This document shows positions 43,111 through 51,130 of a stretch of DNA of 64,000 bases, piece after piece. This stretch comes from an uncultured delta proteobacterium. Its GTDB lineage: Bacteria > Desulfobacterota > Binatia > UTPRO1. A program made the translations under genes and the position numbers. The notes below the pieces were generated by a model. That model saw nothing but the letters and a program-made list of their open reading frames with translations, did no database searches and was not told where the DNA came from. The stretch lies in the NCBI GenBank assembly GCA_963774015.1, contig CAVZDH010000001.1, forward strand, positions 451,064-515,063. The letters run 5' to 3'. Positions within the stretch are counted from its first letter, which is position 1. Each line of letters opens with the position of its first letter.

Positions 43111-45533
<2,423 letters not shown>

Positions 45534-45757: not shown

Positions 45758-45767
45758 GCCGCGTGGG
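45758..45767. repeat. Left copy of 10-bp flanking direct repeat GCCGCGTGGG (candidate target-site duplication)
   Basis: Identical 10-mer at 51086-51095; left copy abuts the outer end of the left inverted repeat. Confidence 0.55.
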
Positions 45768-45779
45768 TAGTGTCTCAGT

Positions 45780-46377
45780 GTCTCATTCTGGGAGGGTGGA
45801 ACCCCTCACCTTCAGGTGACGCCTTCAGGAGGCTTGCGGTACGGTGGGCGGCATGCGGACCTACCGGCGCGCGTCGCACAGTGTGTATGAGCTGCACTAC
45901 CATTTCGTGTTCACCACGAAGTACCGCAAGCCGGCGTTGACGGGCGATGTGGCCCTCGAAGTGCGCGGGATGGTGCGACAGATTTGTCGGGCGAACGACA
46001 TTGAGATTCTGGCGGGGCACGTACGTCCCGATCACGTGCACCTGTTGTTGAGCGTGCCGCCGCATCTGGCTCCGAGTCGGGTGATGCAAGCGATCAAAGG
46101 GAAGACCTCGCACCGGCTGCTCATGGACCACCGGAAGTTGAGGGCGGCGTTCTGGGGCCGGCATCTGTGGAGCCGGGGGTACTTCGTGTGCAGCAGCGGC
46201 AATGTGACTGATGAGATGATCGCGGAGTACATCCGGACGCAAGATGCCGAGCCCCAGGACGACGACCGGTTCAAGGTGAGTGAGTGACATGGTCATGAGC
46301 TTGCAGCGCACGGCGAGGGTCTTCAGGCGCCTTTAGGCGCCCGCGAACCCGCCGCCTTTAGGCGGCGGAGGGCTCAG
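45780..46377 (+). mobile_element. IS200/IS605-family insertion sequence (tnpA only), inserted within the left inverted repeat of the IS1-family element
   Basis: Encodes Y1 HUH transposase; subterminal hairpins (left: TCACC-TTCA-GGTGA about 45806-45820; right: GGCGCC-TTTA-GGCGCC 46326-46341 and GCCGCC-TTTA-GGCGGC 46351-46366); boundaries +/- 5 bp. Confidence 0.7.
45853..46287 (+). CDS. tnpA: IS200/IS605-family transposase TnpA (Y1 HUH)
   Basis: HUH motif in YELHYHFVFTTKYRKP, conserved DHVHLLLSVPP and catalytic Tyr region (RGYFVCSSGNVTDEMIAEYI). Confidence 0.9.
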   Translation: MRTYRRASHSVYELHYHFVFTTKYRKPALTGDVALEVRGMVRQICRANDIEILAGHVRPDHVHLLLSVPPHLAPSRVMQAIKGKTSHRLLMDHRKLRAAFWGRHLWSRGYFVCSSGNVTDEMIAEYIRTQDAEPQDDDRFKVSE

Positions 46378-46482
46378 TTTGATTCCGGGCGCCCGATTCC
46401 GACCCGCGCAACCGCCGACGACGTGTGCTAGCTTCCGCGACGATGCCGAAGGGCCCCCCGAGGCGAGAAGCGCCCCGCTGAC

Positions 46483-46671
46483 GTGATCGGCAACGCCGTG
46501 CATGTCATGCGCATCGCGACCGGCGAGGTGGAGGATCAGGTGCGCGACCCGGCGAAGGAGCACATGCGCCAGGGCGGGCTCAAGGGCGGCGTGGCGCGGA
46601 AGAAGGCGTTTTCACCTGAGAAGCGGAAGGCGATCGCGAAGAAGGCTGCGCGTGCGCGCTGGGGGAGTTAG
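46483..46671 (+). CDS. Small hypothetical protein with basic Lys/Ala-rich C-terminus
   Basis: 62-aa ORF; C-terminus GGLKGGVARKKAFSPEKRKAIAKKAARARWG; converges on the PIN-like gene; coding status uncertain. Confidence 0.3.
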   Translation: MIGNAVHVMRIATGEVEDQVRDPAKEHMRQGGLKGGVARKKAFSPEKRKAIAKKAARARWGS

Positions 46672-47108
46672 TCCCCTCTTCGACGGCTTCGACGATGCAG
46701 GGTCAGTAGGTCTGTTTCCGTGTAAACCTTCACTATTTCCCCATCAGCCGAAATCTTGGTGAAGAACGGGGCCGGGTAGCGGTTGATCACGCGGGCCATG
46801 CCTCGCAACCCGTCGTCAAACGCTTGCGCCATTCGGTCGGCAGTCATGTCCGCCCTGGTGAACCCAAACAGGCGAGCCCGTGATTGTAGGATCTCGAGCC
46901 GTTCACTGACGTCGCTGACTATGCCGTCGTTCTTGGTGAGGCCGATCCAACCGCTTCGACCCACAAGACGAATCCAGGGTTCGTCGCCGCCCTCTGGCTG
47001 CTGATCCAGGTTGTTGCCCGCGAACAGAAGGGCGTGTTCGCGAATAGGCCAACCGCGTTCGCGTAACAGAGTCGGGAGTCTCCGACCGAGGGATCGATCG
47101 GTGAACAC
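46668..47108 (-). CDS. DUF5615-like PIN-type protein (putative toxin)
   Basis: 146 aa; N-terminus FTDRSLGRRLPTLLRERGW resembles the DUF5615 (Mut7-C/PIN-like) start; immediately downstream of and co-oriented with a DUF433 gene, the usual partner. Confidence 0.5.
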   Translation of the reverse strand: MFTDRSLGRRLPTLLRERGWPIREHALLFAGNNLDQQPEGGDEPWIRLVGRSGWIGLTKNDGIVSDVSERLEILQSRARLFGFTRADMTADRMAQAFDDGLRGMARVINRYPAPFFTKISADGEIVKVYTETDLLTLHRRSRRRGD

Positions 47109-47128
47109 TCCGGTCTGTGCAACGATCG

Positions 47129-47896
47129 CTAGGCTGCGTTCTCGTAGAGCAACGCGTCCGTGATGTCCGCCAGCGGCCGGCAGTAGTCCTCGGCGAGCGC
47201 CTCGATCGATTCACCGGCGCGTTTTCGTTCAGCCACGATTCGGGTACGGATATCGGTTCCGGCGATCACGGGTCGCCCATAGGCGTAGCGTGGGTGAATC
47301 AGGATGCGTCGGGCACTCGGAGCGGGGCCATCGATCTGGGCTTCTGTAGCGAAGGGAAACACGCCGATAGCGCCTGCCGGGTCGAATTGAATGCGTTCCA
47401 AGTAGCGGATTAGGACGTCACGCATGCCAACCTGGGCAACCGATGGGCTATCGGAGATATTCAACACAACCGCATCTTCGAGCGAATCCAGAAACAGACT
47501 GTACCCGTCCGTCAGCATCCGCGACGTTGCTAACGGATGTTCGGATTTGAATTCCCTGCGCAGATGCACTATTGCGTTGCGTACTTTCGGTAGCTTGATC
47601 CCGTAACGACGCCGTACCGAATCGAGTACAAAAACTTCCACGAGATTCGTAAACGACAGCAAACCGCGTTCGCGGTCAGCTATCTTGATCAGCGGATGCC
47701 ACGTCCGGTGACCGTCAGATACCGGATAGTCTCGACCGTACACCCAGGTGCGAACGGTGCTCGCCGGAACCTTCAAGTAGCTCGCGGCGCTAGCGACTGG
47801 GTAGTTCGGGACATGTCGCGGATCGACATCGCGGTAGCTCAGTATCGTGTCCGCTTTTGGCATCTTGACGTACCTGCACCAAGCATACACGGGCAC
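47129..47896 (-). CDS. HTH plus DUF433 domain protein (putative antitoxin/regulator)
   Basis: C-terminal DUF433 signature RILIHPRYAYGRPVIAGTDIRTRIVAERKRAGESIEALAEDYCRPLADITDALLYE; N-terminal HTH-like segment (AASYLKVPASTVRTWVYGRDYP); central region unassigned. Confidence 0.65.
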   Translation of the reverse strand: MPVYAWCRYVKMPKADTILSYRDVDPRHVPNYPVASAASYLKVPASTVRTWVYGRDYPVSDGHRTWHPLIKIADRERGLLSFTNLVEVFVLDSVRRRYGIKLPKVRNAIVHLRREFKSEHPLATSRMLTDGYSLFLDSLEDAVVLNISDSPSVAQVGMRDVLIRYLERIQFDPAGAIGVFPFATEAQIDGPAPSARRILIHPRYAYGRPVIAGTDIRTRIVAERKRAGESIEALAEDYCRPLADITDALLYENAA

Positions 47897-48060
47897 GGCA
47901 GTTCAAGGGAGAGCCGTTTGCATTCGCTAAGTTAGCGGACTGCCGAGAACATCAAGGGGCTGGTCGTTCTCCGGTCGTGCGTCGAGACGGTAGATTACCG
48001 GGCGACAATCAGGTGAAACTTTTGCTTGACACTCAAGTATTATTGTCATATCATTGCGGC

Positions 48061-48969
48061 ATGAACAAGTTGCCGGTTGCCACGCGGGTCCAGATCCTCT
48101 CGATGCTCTGCGAAGGCTCCTCGATGCGCTCGATCAGCCGGGTCGCTGACGTCTCGATCAACACCGTCGCCCGCTACCTCGTGATCGCCGGCAAAGCGTG
48201 CAGCGCGTTCCACGACGTCACCGTTCGCAACGTCGCTGCGAAGCGCGTGCAGTGCGACGAAATCTGGTCGTTCGTCGGGATGAAGGAGAAGGCCGCGAAG
48301 GCGAAGGCGTCGAAGGACGAGCGACCCGCGAACGTCGGCGACGTGTGGACGTGGACAGCGATCGACGCCGACTCGAAGCTGATCGTGTCGTGGCTCCTCG
48401 GCGGTCGCGATGCAGGGTGCGCGTGGGAGTTCATGACCGACGTCGCGTCGCGGCTTGCGAACCGCGTGCAGCTCACGACCGACGCGCACAAGGCGTATCT
48501 CACGGTCGTGCCCGAGGCATTCGGCTTCAACGTCGACTACGCGCAGATCGTCAAGGTCTACGGCGCCGATCCGAAGGAGGATCAGCGCCGCTACTCCCCG
48601 GCGCAGTGCCTCGGCGCCGAGAAGCTGCACATTCACGGCTACCCGAAAGACGAACACATCTCGACGTCGTATATCGAGCGCAGCAACTTAACGCTCAGAA
48701 TGGCGAACCGCCGCTTCACGCGGTTGACCAATGCGTTCTCGAAGAAGCTGGAGAACCACGCGCACATGGTCGCGCTCTACACGTGCTGGTACAACTTCGT
48801 GAAGATGCACAAGACGATTGGCTGCACCCCCGCGATGGCGGCCGGCGTGATCGACACGCTCTGGTCGATGACCGATCTCGTGGCGCTCGTCGACAAGTAC
48901 GACGACGCGCAGCCGCGCAAGAAGGCGGGGCGTAAGCCGAAGGCGACCGATCCGGGTTCTCAGTCATGA
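48061..48969 (+). CDS. IS1-family transposase (fused InsA-like HTH and InsB-like DDE domain)
   Basis: InsB-like blocks VQCDEIWSFVGMKEK, WTWTAIDADSKLIVSW, LTTDAHKAYL, IERSNLTLRMANRRFTRLTNAFSKKLENHAHMVALYTCWYNFVKMH match E. coli IS1 InsB pattern (VQSDELWTFVG...IERHNLNLRQ...); N-terminal HTH VATRVQILSMLCEGSSMRSISRVADVSINTVARYL. Confidence 0.85.
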   Translation: MNKLPVATRVQILSMLCEGSSMRSISRVADVSINTVARYLVIAGKACSAFHDVTVRNVAAKRVQCDEIWSFVGMKEKAAKAKASKDERPANVGDVWTWTAIDADSKLIVSWLLGGRDAGCAWEFMTDVASRLANRVQLTTDAHKAYLTVVPEAFGFNVDYAQIVKVYGADPKEDQRRYSPAQCLGAEKLHIHGYPKDEHISTSYIERSNLTLRMANRRFTRLTNAFSKKLENHAHMVALYTCWYNFVKMHKTIGCTPAMAAGVIDTLWSMTDLVALVDKYDDAQPRKKAGRKPKATDPGSQS

Positions 48970-49154
48970 GCCCGAAGGTCCGACGAGTGCTCGTCGGCTT
49001 CATTATCAGCTTCCTGATTCTTACTGGCTGCGAGGTCGCTGCGCGACTCTATCTCGACTGGGTTAAGACGAGCGGGGCATCCCGAGCCTGCACTGCACTC
49101 GGCGGCACGTGGGATGCGCCGGCCCGGCATTGCGCGAGCCCGGAATCAAACTGA
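48966..49154 (+). CDS. Small hydrophobic peptide ORF translationally coupled to the IS1-type transposase
   Basis: ATG overlaps transposase stop (ATGA); predicted TM or lipoprotein-like segment VLVGFIISFLILTGC; 3' end overlaps right inverted repeat; coding status uncertain. Confidence 0.3.
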   Translation: MSPKVRRVLVGFIISFLILTGCEVAARLYLDWVKTSGASRACTALGGTWDAPARHCASPESN

Positions 49155-49162
49155 GACACTAG
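49139..49162. repeat. Right terminal inverted repeat of IS1-family element
   Basis: GCCCGGAATCAAACTGAGACACTA is the exact reverse complement of the reconstructed left repeat. Confidence 0.6.
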
Positions 49163-51085
49163 TGCGCCGGTCAAAACCGGCAAGGTGTTGTGGATGAAAG
49201 AGCCACACGATGAAGGAGTAGCGACCCACATCGGCCCCGAGTCATGCGTCGCTGTCCGTGAGGGCAGAGGCGAAGCGTTGACAGGGGTACGTGCAGGCCA
49301 GCCATGGAGCCGCGAAAATCAATTATAGCCTCGGGTGCCGACGCTCTTAGTGTAAGCGGAAGGCAACATCGCAGTGCGTCGATATCGCGAGAGGCGGCGG
49401 ACCCGGCGCGGTCGAAGACCCTGCGCATGCACGGAAACACTTTGCACGGGAACCGGGAGATCCCGCCACCGTCTGGGAGCCGGAGTGGCCCAGACCGCAT
49501 CGGGAAGTCGAGAGACGCAATCCGATGACGCACGGTGACGGGAAGTCGGACACCGCCGTAGTACCGAGAGAAGCTGCCGAACAAAGCTGCGGAACCAGCG
49601 GCGGAGGCGGTGGAGGGAAGGGCGGTGGCCAAGGGGAAGACGCTCGAGCGTAACACGCTCCGGACGCAGAGCCGGGAAGGTGTGCCCAGCGCGCTCGAGC
49701 GGATACGAGAGGCCGCAAGGCAACAGAAGCAGCTGCGTTTCACCGCGCTCCTGCACCACGTCTACGACGTCGAACGGCTGCGGCGGGCCTACTACGCACT
49801 GAAGCGAGAGGCGGCGGCGGGAATCGACGGGGAGACGTGGAAGCACTACGGCGAGCAGTTGGGAGAAAATCTGCAAGACCTGTCCCAGCGGCTCAAACGG
49901 GGAGCGTACCGAGCCAAGCCTGTACGGCGGGCGTACATCGAGAAGGCGGACGGGCGGCAGAGGCCGCTCGGCGTTCCCGTGCTGGAGGACAAGATCGTCC
50001 AGCGCGCCGTCGTCGAGGTGCTCAACGCCATTTACGAACAGGACTTTGCGAGGTTCTCGTATGGATTCCGCCCGGGGCGCGGACCGCATGATGCCCTGAA
50101 CGCGCTGACGGTGGCGATCCAGACCAGAAAGGTGAGCTGGGTGCTCGACGCGGACATCAGAAGCTTCTTCGACACGCTGGAACACAGCTGGTTGGTGAAG
50201 TTCGTCGAGCATCGGGTGGCAGACCGGCGCATCGTGCGCCTCATCCAGAAGTGGTTGAGGGCCGGGGTGCTGGAAGAAGGTCGGCGGACACGTAGCGAGG
50301 TAGGGACGGTACAGGGCGGAAGCATCAGCCCGCTGCTGGCCAATATCTACCTGCACTACGTGTTCGATCTGTGGACCCAGCGATGGAGAAAGAAGCAGGC
50401 GCGCGGACAGGTCATCGTCGTGCGCTACGCCGACGACTTCGTCCTTGGGTTCGAGCATCGCCACGAGGCCGAGCAGTTCCTCGTGGATCTCAAGCAGCGG
50501 TTTTCCCAGTTTGGCTTGGAGCTGCACCCGGAGAAGACCAGACTGATCGAGTTCGGGCGGTTCGCCGCCAGCAATCGCGATCGGCGAGGACAGGGAAAGC
50601 CCGAGACCTTCGACTTCCTTGGCTTCACGCACAGCTGCGGGAAGACGCGGAAGACGGGGAGCTTTGTGGTGCTGCGGCGAACGATGCGCAAGCGGATGGC
50701 GGCGAAGCTGCAGGAAGTGAAAGCCGAACTGCGACGACGTCGGCACACGACCCTTGGCGAGCAGGCGGAGTATCTGCGAGCGGTGGTGCAAGGGCACATG
50801 CGGTACTATGGCGTGCCCCGCAACTTTCCAGCGCTCAACGCGTTCCGCTGGGCGCTCGGCCGACTGTGGTGGCGGTCGTTAGGCCGCCGCAGTCAACGCG
50901 GCCGCATCCCCTGGCAGCGCATGACGCGTATCCTACGTCTGGCACTGCCGCGTGTTCGCATCTGTCATCCCTATCCGTCCTTGGACGCATCTCGTCAGAA
51001 CCTGAGGCAGGAGCCGGATGCGGTAATGCCGCACGTCCGGATCTGTGCGGGGGGCGCCGAGCGATCGGCGTCCCTACCGCGACCC
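49163..51085 (+). mobile_element. Bacterial group II intron (ribozyme plus intron-encoded protein)
   Basis: 5' end GTGCGCC at 49163 (consensus GUGYG); RT/maturase ORF; domain V-like hairpin at 51011-51043; GNRA-capped hairpin at 51050-51073; 3' end near 51083-51085 (CGAC/CC), boundary +/- 3 nt. Confidence 0.8.
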
Positions 51086-51130
51086 GCCGCGTGGGAGGCC
51101 CTCATGGCCGCTGCCGGGGCGGAGAGATAA
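49610..51130 (+). CDS. Group II intron-encoded reverse transcriptase/maturase
   Basis: RT domains 0-7 (RPLGVPVLEDKIVQRAVVEVLNAIYEQDFARFSYGFRPGRGPHDAL; DADIRSFFDTLEH; YADDFVLGF) and maturase X domain; no HNH endonuclease domain seen; computed ORF runs through domain V, so true C-terminus is uncertain. Confidence 0.9.
   Translation: MEGRAVAKGKTLERNTLRTQSREGVPSALERIREAARQQKQLRFTALLHHVYDVERLRRAYYALKREAAAGIDGETWKHYGEQLGENLQDLSQRLKRGAYRAKPVRRAYIEKADGRQRPLGVPVLEDKIVQRAVVEVLNAIYEQDFARFSYGFRPGRGPHDALNALTVAIQTRKVSWVLDADIRSFFDTLEHSWLVKFVEHRVADRRIVRLIQKWLRAGVLEEGRRTRSEVGTVQGGSISPLLANIYLHYVFDLWTQRWRKKQARGQVIVVRYADDFVLGFEHRHEAEQFLVDLKQRFSQFGLELHPEKTRLIEFGRFAASNRDRRGQGKPETFDFLGFTHSCGKTRKTGSFVVLRRTMRKRMAAKLQEVKAELRRRRHTTLGEQAEYLRAVVQGHMRYYGVPRNFPALNAFRWALGRLWWRSLGRRSQRGRIPWQRMTRILRLALPRVRICHPYPSLDASRQNLRQEPDAVMPHVRICAGGAERSASLPRPAAWEALMAAAGAER
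51011..51043 (+). ncRNA. Group II intron catalytic domain V
   Basis: GAGCCGGAUGCGG-UAAU-GCCGCACGUCCGGAUC closely matches the domain V consensus GAGCCGUAUGCGAU-GAAA-GUCGCACGUACGGUUC, including the AGC triad. Confidence 0.6.
51086..51095. repeat. Right copy of 10-bp flanking direct repeat GCCGCGTGGG
   Basis: Identical to 45758-45767; lies just 3' of the group II intron. Confidence 0.55.

What the first reader, a model, noticed from the sequence alone, without database searches (positions are those of the whole stretch)
45768..46390. IS200/IS605-type element (tnpA only) inserted inside the terminal inverted repeat of another IS
The left repeat of the IS1-family element is interrupted after TAGTGTCTCAG; the inserted segment starts TGTCTCATTCTGGG and ends ...GGAGGGCTCAG, so the flanking pentamer CTCAG is also the last five bases of the insert. 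IS200/IS605 elements insert 3' of a short specific sequence without inverted repeats, and the insert carries typical subterminal hairpins (two GC-stem/TTTA-loop hairpins at 46326-46366). The interruption probably inactivates the left end of the host IS and immobilises it. No tnpB/OMEGA nuclease gene accompanies tnpA.
Basis: partly seen in the sequence, partly recalled or inferred. Interest (0 to 1): 0.55.

Follow-up and report, generated by a model that had tools for sequence, protein, structure and literature searches.

The report
IS200 transposon nested in another transposon's end
A 599-base IS200-type jumping gene has landed inside the left terminal repeat of a larger IS1-type jumping gene; the call is correct, and this kind of nesting is ordinary in bacterial genomes.

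Summary
The observation and the interpretation both hold. A 599-bp IS200-group element (45779-46377, + strand, tnpA only) sits 3' of the pentamer CTCAG, 13 nt inside the left inverted repeat of an IS1-family element.

- **Ends:** Eleven other copies from unrelated contexts fix the ends at TGTCYC... and ...CTCAG.
- **Target rule:** In 142 of 148 related loci, a 4-nt "guide" 5' of the left hairpin is complementary at its last base to the base before the insertion point. This is the target-recognition rule known from IS608. Here the guide GAAC pairs with TCAG at both ends.
- **Right-end hairpins:** Both are supported by compensatory changes.
- **TnpA:** It passes the IS200 model and fails the REP-transposase model. 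It keeps the HUH motif and the catalytic tyrosine, and shows purifying selection.
- **Host element:** A related IS1-type element (L006) has the same repeat uninterrupted.
- **New finding:** The host's right repeat is also split, 2 nt from its tip, by a group II intron (49162-51083). Removing both inserts in silico gives a 2799-bp element with perfect 26-bp repeats and an 8-bp target duplication, GCCGCGTG.

Immobilisation of the host is inferred, not tested. At the left end it would be reversible by precise IS200 excision. This is a new member of a known kind, of low interest.

The parts
45758..45765 (.). Left copy of the 8-bp target-site duplication (GCCGCGTG) of the host IS1-family element
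   Evidence: Identical 8-mer at 51086-51093, directly outside the reconstituted repeats
45766..45778 (+). Outer 13 bp of the host left inverted repeat (GGTAGTGTCTCAG). Its last five bases (45774-45778, CTCAG) are the IS200 target and left cleavage site.
   Evidence: Matches the host right end and the intact repeat in L006
45779..46377 (+). IS200-group insertion sequence, 599 bp, tnpA only
   Evidence: Ends fixed by alignment with copies in other contexts. 92% nt identity over all 599 bp to L093.
45779..45843 (+). Left end (LE). Contains guide GAAC (45799-45802), the TnpA-type hairpin (arm 45803-45810, loop TTCA 45811-45814, arm 45815-45822; 5 canonical pairs), and a second small hairpin (45821-45833) that overlaps the AGGAGG ribosome-binding site.
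   Evidence: Sequence; hairpins appear in the DNA fold; guide/flank covariation across 148 loci
45844..46287 (+). tnpA, a Y1 HUH transposase. 147 aa from GTG 45844, or 144 aa from ATG 45853. HUH = H61-V62-H63 and Tyr126 in the 144-aa numbering.
   Evidence: Pfam and NCBIfam; PDB relatives 2EC2, 2XM3 and 2A6M with motifs aligned; pN/pS 0.03-0.28
46288..46377 (+). Right end (RE). Contains hairpin 1 (46326-46341), guide GAAC (46345-46348), hairpin 2 / IP_R (46349-46368, 8-bp stem, TTTA loop), a 5-nt spacer, and the right cleavage site TCAG (46374-46377).
   Evidence: compensatory changes in both stems with none broken in 24 sequences; RE end from multi-copy clusters
46378..46390 (+). Inner 13 bp of the host left inverted repeat (TTTGATTCCGGGC)
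   Evidence: (I7)
46391..49137 (+). Interior of the host IS1-family element. Contains a conserved 62-aa ORF (46483-46671, +), a PIN_10 protein (46668-47108, -), a DUF433/HTH_66 protein (47129-47896, -), the IS1-family transposase (48061-48969, +, 302 aa), and a 62-aa ORF (48966-49154, +) whose last 17 nt run into the right inverted repeat (49138-49161).
49138..49161 (-). First 24 bp (inner part) of the host right inverted repeat
49162..51083 (+). Group II intron splitting the host right repeat 2 nt from its tip. 5' GTGCG; reverse transcriptase/maturase ORF from 49610; domain V/VI at 51009-51083.
   Evidence: Rfam RF02005 180 bits and RF00029 41 bits; TIGR04416 362 bits; RVT_1
51084..51093 (.). 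Last 2 bp (CC) of the host right repeat, then the right copy of the 8-bp target duplication GCCGCGTG (51086-51093)

Best explanation
The segment 45779-46377 is an autonomous IS200-group insertion sequence of the IS200/IS605 family, carrying tnpA only.

Its Y1 HUH transposase binds the subterminal hairpins on the + (top) strand. It finds its cleavage sites by base interactions between a 4-nt guide (GAAC), just 5' of each hairpin arm, and the tetranucleotide TCAG. It moves as a single-stranded circle ('peel and paste').

The element integrated 3' of CTCAG. That pentamer happens to lie at positions 9-13 of the 26-bp left terminal repeat of a 2.8-kb IS1-family element that carries passenger genes. 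The repeat is now split 13 + 13 bp with no target duplication.

Shown here: element identity, exact ends, the target pentamer, conserved hairpins, guide/target covariation, and the insertion status relative to an intact host repeat.

Inferred: the single-strand mechanism and current activity; that the split left repeat can no longer be used by the host transposase, so the host is immobilised; and that precise IS200 excision would restore the repeat. The host is also disabled at its right repeat by a group II intron.
For: **Transposase**
- Pfam Y1_Tnp E=1e-40.
- NCBIfam transpos_IS200 152.7 bits, above the cut-off of 55.
- PDB relatives are Sulfolobus 2EC2 (1e-28), ISDra2 2XM3 (9e-24) and IS608 2A6M (1.5e-14), with HUH and the catalytic Tyr aligned.
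- pN/pS against seven relatives is 0.03-0.28.

**Ends and target**
- In eleven other copies that carry the same GAAC guide, similarity begins immediately 3' of CTCAG (nine), CGCAG (one) or CTTAG (one), at TGTCYC (GGTCCC in one).
- In the seven members of the window's right-end cluster, similarity ends at ..CTCAG or CTTAG.

**Guide rule**
- In 148 related loci, guide position 4 is Watson-Crick complementary to the last flank base in 142: C:G 119, T:A 15, G:C 8.
- Right-end clusters follow the same rule: GAAT with TCAA, TAAG with TCAC, GAAC or CAAC with TCAG or TGAG.
- This is the IS608 arrangement described in PMC3201880.

**Hairpins**
- Five stem pairs show compensatory changes and none is broken in 24 sequences.

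**Mobility of the lineage**
- One Acidobacteriota genome bin contributes 24 of the 80 loci listed, all in different flanks.

**Host context**
- L006 has an intact repeat and an 8-bp duplication.
- Removing the IS200 and the intron in silico gives perfect 26-bp repeats and the 8-bp duplication GCCGCGTG.
- CTCAG occurs 41 times in the window, so no special targeting of the repeat is needed.
Against: - Only one copy is present in the 64-kb window, so mobility in this genome is not shown.
- The closest copy found elsewhere is 92% identical at nucleotide level, so a recent arrival cannot be claimed.
- The left-end region does not fold better than shuffled sequence (z = +0.3), and the right end only modestly so (z = -2.1). 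The hairpin evidence is therefore comparative rather than thermodynamic.
- The base after the right end is T in all close copies and the element also begins with T, so the boundary could be shifted by 1 nt.
- Loss of host IS mobility is not tested.
Confidence: 0.93

Rival explanations
1. The gene is a domesticated REP-associated tyrosine transposase (RAYT) with its REP hairpins, not a mobile IS.
For: JGI labels two relatives 'REP-associated tyrosine transposase'. The element's hairpins resemble REPs. There is a weak hit to NCBIfam REP_Tyr_transpos, E=1e-10.
Against: - The REP_Tyr_transpos score is 41.8 bits, below the cut-off of 80, while transpos_IS200 passes clearly.
- The hairpin core GCCTTYAGGC occurs only twice in the 64-kb window, both times inside the element. 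There are no dispersed REP arrays.
- Relatives occur as many full-length copies per genome, with fixed ends next to a fixed pentamer.
- The unit sits inside another element's repeat, and the empty-site equivalent exists.
Confidence: 0.02
2. The 599-bp segment is a native part of the IS1-type element's left end, i.e. the repeat is naturally bipartite.
For: None beyond its position.
Against: - L006 carries a related element with a continuous left repeat.
- The window's right repeat is continuous across the same position.
- The 599-bp unit is found alone in many unrelated flanks.
Confidence: 0.01
3. The junctions are an assembly chimera: repeated elements were joined wrongly by the assembler.
For: The neighbouring H+-pyrophosphatase gene is broken into several reading frames. 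The assembly may therefore contain indel errors.
Against: - Both junctions fall at the nucleotides the family's biology predicts: 3' of CTCAG with no duplication.
- In-silico removal restores a perfect 26-bp repeat and an 8-bp duplication. A random misjoin would not do this.
- tnpA, the host transposase and the intron reverse transcriptase are all intact ORFs.
Confidence: 0.02
4. It is a real IS200-group insertion but a dead relic. The element no longer transposes, so the host repeat is permanently split.
For: There is a single copy in the window. It is 8% diverged from the nearest copy found. IS200 elements are known for very low transposition rates (my own knowledge).
Against: - The tnpA ORF is intact, with HUH and Tyr.
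- The guide/cleavage-site match is intact at both ends.
- The stems are intact.
- The lineage is under strong purifying selection.
Confidence: 0.2

Closest known systems
IS608 (Helicobacter pylori) and ISDra2 (Deinococcus radiodurans), the mechanistic models of the IS200/IS605 family
   Same: - Y1 HUH transposase with the Tyr in the C-terminal helix.
- No terminal inverted repeats and no target duplication.
- Subterminal hairpins at both ends.
- The left cleavage site lies outside the element and equals the target. The right cleavage site is the last bases of the element.
- A 4-nt guide sits 5' of each hairpin foot and covaries with the cleavage site (PMC3201880).
- Relatives even reuse the IS608 pairs AAAG/TTAC and GAAT/TCAA.
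   Different: - There is no tnpB.
- The target is (C)TCAG, not TTAC (IS608) or TTGAT (ISDra2).
- The left and right cleavage sites and both guides are identical (TCAG, GAAC). The right end is therefore itself a target.
- The left cleavage site is 24 nt from the hairpin foot (19 in IS608), and the right one 9 nt (10 in IS608).
- TnpA is only distantly similar to IS608 TnpA (E=1.5e-14).
IS200 of Salmonella and the IS200 group generally (tnpA-only elements of about 600-750 bp)
   Same: Size (599 bp), a single tnpA of about 145 aa, and a left-end hairpin overlapping the ribosome-binding site. The last point is read from the sequence; the comparison with IS200 is from my own knowledge.
   Different: The host lineage differs: the relatives found are mostly in Acidobacteriota genome bins. 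The end sequences and target differ. The element has no name that I could check, because ISfinder is not available here.
REP-associated tyrosine transposases (RAYT / TnpA-REP)
   Same: Same Y1 HUH fold family. They also recognise hairpins with guide-like tetranucleotides (PMC8266576 and PMC3333891, listed).
   Different: This element fails the NCBIfam REP_Tyr_transpos cut-off. There are no dispersed REPs in the window. It is multi-copy, with fixed ends, in its relatives.
IS1-family elements that carry passenger genes ('transporter IS', tIS) - this is the host element
   Same: - Transposase hits Pfam DDE_Tnp_IS1 above its cut-off, and homologues are named IS1 family by NCBI and JGI.
- The repeats start GGnnnTG and the duplication is 8 bp, as is typical for IS1 (my own knowledge of ISfinder tables).
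- Passenger genes lie inside the repeats. The tIS concept is described in PMC9330008 and PMC7986276.
   Different: - The transposase is a single 302-aa ORF with no frameshift.
- The NCBIfam transpos_IS1 score is 69 bits, below its cut-off of 100.
- The cargo differs between relatives: PIN_10 plus DUF433 here, an M78-peptidase/HTH protein in L006, and HEPN_AbiU2 in L011.

Membership tests
IS200/IS605 family, IS200 group | Encodes a Y1 (HUH) transposase of the IS200 type | tested here: met
   Pfam Y1_Tnp 138.9 bits against a cut-off of 23. NCBIfam transpos_IS200 152.7 bits against a cut-off of 55.
IS200/IS605 family, IS200 group | HUH motif and catalytic tyrosine present | tested here: met
   PDHVHLLL and AEYIRTQ align with the same motifs of ISDra2 TnpA (2XM3) and Sulfolobus 2EC2.
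IS200/IS605 family, IS200 group | No terminal inverted repeats; subterminal hairpins at both ends | tested here: met
   The ends TGTCTCATT... and ...GGGCTCAG are not inverted repeats. The right-end stems show 5 compensatory pairs and none broken in 24 sequences. The left-end hairpin carries the same CCTTYAGG loop motif.
IS200/IS605 family, IS200 group | Inserts 3' of a specific tetra- or pentanucleotide without target duplication | tested here: met
   The left flank is CTCAG in 10 of the 12 copies that carry the same GAAC guide, counting the window; the other two have CGCAG and CTTAG. Removing the insert restores the host repeat with nothing gained or lost.
IS200/IS605 family, IS200 group | Cleavage sites are recognised by guide tetranucleotides 5' of the hairpins | tested here: met
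   Natural covariation. Guide position 4 is complementary to the last cleavage-site base in 142 of 148 left ends and in all informative multi-copy right-end clusters. Biochemical pairing itself was not tested.
IS200/IS605 family, IS200 group | tnpA only, no tnpB | tested here: met
   The element is 599 bp, of which tnpA occupies 435-444 bp. No IS605-orfB or omega-RNA-type Rfam family is found.
IS200/IS605 family, IS200 group | Transposes via a single-stranded circular intermediate; active in this genome | not testable with these tools
   There is only one copy in the window. RE-LE abutted junctions are seen in relatives (L004, L017, L080), but they may be tandem copies.
REP-associated tyrosine transposase (RAYT) | Protein passes the RAYT model; single copy flanked by REPs, with many REPs dispersed in the genome | tested here: not met
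   REP_Tyr_transpos 41.8 bits, below the cut-off of 80. The hairpin core occurs only inside the element within the 64-kb window. Relatives are multi-copy.
IS1 family (host element) | DDE transposase of IS1 type | tested here: inconclusive
   Pfam DDE_Tnp_IS1 28.8 bits, above the cut-off of 24.1. NCBIfam transpos_IS1 69 bits, below the cut-off of 100. Close homologues are named IS1 family by NCBI and JGI.
IS1 family (host element) | Terminal inverted repeats and an 8-9 bp target duplication | tested here: met
   26-bp perfect repeats starting GGTAGTG and an 8-bp duplication GCCGCGTG, after in-silico removal of the two inserts. The L006 relative has 29-bp repeats and an 8-bp duplication TGACCGTG.
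Group II intron (second insert, in the host right repeat) | Ribozyme domains plus an intron-encoded reverse transcriptase/maturase; 5' GUGYG | tested here: met
   RF02005 180 bits and RF00029 41.3 bits. TIGR04416 362.5 bits against a cut-off of 300. GTGCG at 49162. Excision in silico restores the repeat.

The most novel reading that the evidence does not exclude
This IS200 subfamily has identical left and right cleavage sites (TCAG) and excises precisely. It could therefore act as a reversible on/off switch for the mobility of the cargo-carrying IS1-type element. Alternatively, the IS1 repeat, which contains CTCAG followed by T, could be a preferred landing site, making this a case of one IS specifically parasitising another. 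Nothing here excludes either idea. But the pentamer is common (41 sites in 64 kb), and only one such nested case was seen.
Probability: 0.04. Interest if true: 0.4.

Novelty: new member of a known kind. Interest (0 to 1): 0.15.

Why it matters
It matters mainly for annotation. The region 45758-51093 is one IS1-family cargo element, broken at both ends by two other mobile elements. It should not be read as three unrelated features, nor as a composite transposon.

The relatives collected here also give a clean natural-variation demonstration that the IS608 guide/cleavage-site rule holds across an environmental, largely Acidobacteriota clade of tnpA-only elements. The three guide/target base pairings seen (C:G, T:A and G:C) each occur in many copies. 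That supports predicting targets from sequence for unnamed IS200-group elements. None of this changes current understanding of the family.

Tried and rejected
- **Exact-sequence look-ups failed.** The window's TnpA (both possible starts), the host transposase and P0121 were not on record. I used close homologues instead.
- A pattern joining LE and RE across a ~530-nt gap returned 'bad gap'. I replaced it with a protein-seeded scan.
- **L011 and L012 were uninformative for the repeat test.** The host repeat was not found there. Only about 150 nt lie upstream of the transposase gene on those contigs, which leaves no room for the left repeat.
- **Thermodynamic folding was weak evidence.** The left end is no better than shuffles and the right end gives z = -2.1. 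Hairpin support comes from covariation instead.
- **Literature search for 'ISMhu11' found nothing** in the held library. IS1-family end and duplication conventions are therefore cited from my own knowledge.
- **An apparent missing duplication was resolved.** At first the host IS seemed to lack a target duplication, because the right flank reads GTGCGCC. That sequence is the 5' end of a group II intron.
- **Strand bias is only weakly informative.** GC skew of the + strand is +0.03. This is weakly consistent with the element's top strand lying on the lagging-strand template, but it is too confounded in a 64-kb window to count as evidence.
- **RAYT, native-segment and chimera readings were rejected.** See the rival explanations.

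Full report
**1. Observation**

The sequence at 45766-46390 reads GGTAGTGTCTCAG | TGTCTCATTCTGGG ... GGAGGGCTCAG | TTTGATTCCGGGC. The two outer pieces joined together match the reverse complement of 49138-49161. The joined 24-mer has one match in the window, against none in 100 shuffles. CTCAG is both the left flank and the last five bases of the insert.

The ORF inside (45844 or 45853 to 46287) is a Y1 transposase. It scores Pfam Y1_Tnp E=1e-40 and NCBIfam transpos_IS200 152.7 bits against a cut-off of 55. The two GC-stem/TTTA-loop hairpins are at 46326-46341 and 46349-46368. The description is confirmed, with small coordinate corrections.

**2. Exact ends**

Copies of the same unit were fetched from metagenomes and genome bins. 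The closest, L093, is 92% identical over all 599 bp.

Eleven other copies carry the same GAAC guide. In them, similarity starts immediately after CTCAG (nine), CGCAG (one) or CTTAG (one), at TGTCYC (GGTCCC in one). In the seven members of the window's right-end cluster, similarity stops at ..CTCAG or CTTAG. The element is therefore 45779-46377.

The next base is T in every close copy, and the element itself begins with T. A 1-nt shift of both boundaries therefore cannot be excluded. In a 72%-identical multi-copy family, the equivalent base is G in only about three quarters of copies. It thus looks like a +1 target preference rather than part of the element.

**3. Anatomy and mechanism**

The left end carries GAAC (45799-45802), followed by an 8-nt arm, a TTCA loop and the return arm (45803-45822, five canonical pairs). 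A second small hairpin (45821-45833) overlaps the AGGAGG ribosome-binding site. The right end carries hairpin 1, then GAAC (46345-46348), an 8-bp hairpin (46349-46368), a 5-nt spacer and TCAG (46374-46377).

In IS608, the cleavage sites are read by 4-nt guides located 5' of the hairpin feet, and the left guide sets the target (PMC3201880). I tested this rule on natural variation, with the left end anchored only on conserved motifs.

- In 142 of 148 loci, the fourth guide base is complementary to the last flank base: C:G 119, T:A 15, G:C 8.
- The first guide base (G or A) also tracks the second cleavage-site base (C or T).
- Right-end boundaries were defined objectively from multi-copy clusters, and they obey the same rule: GAAT with TCAA, TAAG with TCAC, GAAC or CAAC with TCAG or TGAG.
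- Both right-end stems carry compensatory changes (5 pairs), and no pair is broken in 24 sequences.

TnpA aligns with ISDra2, IS608 and Sulfolobus transposase structures, with HUH (H61-V62-H63) and Tyr126 in place. Its pN/pS against relatives is 0.03-0.28. These results show an IS608-type architecture. The single-strand 'peel and paste' chemistry itself is inferred from the family.

**4. The host element**

The 330-aa ORF at 47977-48969 is best read as a 302-aa protein starting at 48061. Its homologues (up to 92% identical) are 296-302 aa long and are named IS1-family transposases. It passes Pfam DDE_Tnp_IS1 but falls below the NCBIfam IS1 cut-off.

A relative in L006 (transposase 90% identical) has the repeat GGTAGTGCCTCAGTTTGATTCCTGACGGC continuous at both ends, with an 8-bp duplication TGACCGTG.

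In the window, the right repeat seemed to lack its last two bases and a duplication. The reason is a group II intron that begins at 49162 (GTGCG) and ends at 51083 (Rfam RF02005 and RF00029; TIGR04416 reverse transcriptase/maturase). Directly after it come CC and GCCGCGTG.

Removing the IS200 and the intron in silico yields a 2799-bp element with perfect 26-bp repeats. It is flanked by GCCGCGTG on both sides.

The host carries a PIN_10 protein and a DUF433/HTH_66 protein. Relatives carry different cargo. Only the transposase gene and a small ORF near the left end are shared with L006. The element sits between a fragmented H+-pyrophosphatase gene and trmO.

**5. Consequences**

The left repeat is split 13 + 13 bp by 599 bp, and the right repeat is split 24 + 2 bp by 1922 bp. 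That the host transposase can no longer use these ends is a reasonable inference, but it is not tested.

IS200/IS605 excision reseals the donor without gain or loss (PMC3201880). The left-end damage is therefore reversible in principle. The intron is removed only at RNA level, so the right end stays broken in DNA.

CTCAG occurs 41 times in the window. Landing in the repeat therefore needs no special explanation.

**6. Rivals**

- **RAYT/REP:** rejected. The REP model is below its cut-off, there are no dispersed hairpins, and relatives are multi-copy with fixed ends.
- **Native segment of the host:** rejected.
- **Assembly chimera:** unlikely, because the junctions restore a perfect repeat and duplication. 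The frameshifted neighbouring gene does warn of possible indel errors.
- **Dead relic:** this remains open, at about 0.2. Only one copy is visible, and the nearest relative is 8% diverged.

**7. Comparison and verdict**

This is an unnamed but typical member of the IS200 group. It works like IS608 or ISDra2 without tnpB, and it uses TCAG at both ends. Nested insertions of one IS in another are commonplace. The finding is correct and well read. It is a new member of a known kind and of low interest.

Noticed in passing
window 49162-51083: A group II intron (5' GTGCG, Rfam D1-D4 and domain V/VI hits, intact reverse transcriptase/maturase) is inserted 2 nt from the outer tip of the host element's right inverted repeat. 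The host IS is therefore interrupted at both ends by two different mobile elements.
   Followed up: yes
window 49610-51130: The intron's reverse-transcriptase ORF has no stop before domain V/VI. It runs 47 nt past the intron's 3' end into the flank. The family match covers only residues 56-426 of 506.
   Followed up: no
window 46668-47896 (- strand); L006 2928-4943; L011 1043-1879: The IS1-type host carries a PIN_10 protein and a DUF433/HTH_66 protein, a toxin-antitoxin-like pair, inside its repeats. Close relatives of the same transposase carry other cargo: an M78-peptidase/HTH_3 protein in L006 and HEPN_AbiU2 in L011. This looks like a family of cargo-swapping 'transporter' IS elements.
   Followed up: partly
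window 46483-46671 (+); L006 2704-2931: A small ORF just inside the left repeat (62 aa here, 75 aa in L006) is conserved at 80% nt identity between the two otherwise different elements. Apart from the transposase gene and the terminal repeats, it is the only shared interior. It matches no family and may be an accessory gene of this IS subgroup.
   Followed up: no
window 43838-45530 (- strand): The H+-translocating pyrophosphatase gene next to the host IS is split over at least three reading frames (Pfam H_PPase positions 3-98, 115-231 and 371-420 fall in separate ORFs). It is either a pseudogene or the assembly has indel errors.
   Followed up: partly
L004 645-700; L017, L076 and L080 upstream of 1501; L066 downstream of 1920: Several related loci show a right end abutting a left end directly (e.g. 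...GGAGCCTCAG|TGTCCCATTC in L004, where the second left end differs in sequence from the first). These look like tandem insertions that re-use the target kept next to a resident copy, or the right end's own TCAG.
   Followed up: no
L013-L172: The base just after the right end tends to equal the first base of the element. It is T in the window's subfamily, and G in about three quarters of copies in a 72%-identical family whose left end starts with G. This suggests a +1 nucleotide preference at both cleavage and integration.
   Followed up: partly
L040, L042, L044, L054, L117: Some copies in Acidobacteriota genome bins have ends truncated or replaced by another repeat that contains ...GCATAATCCGGG.... 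This suggests further nesting of mobile elements within this IS200 lineage.
   Followed up: no
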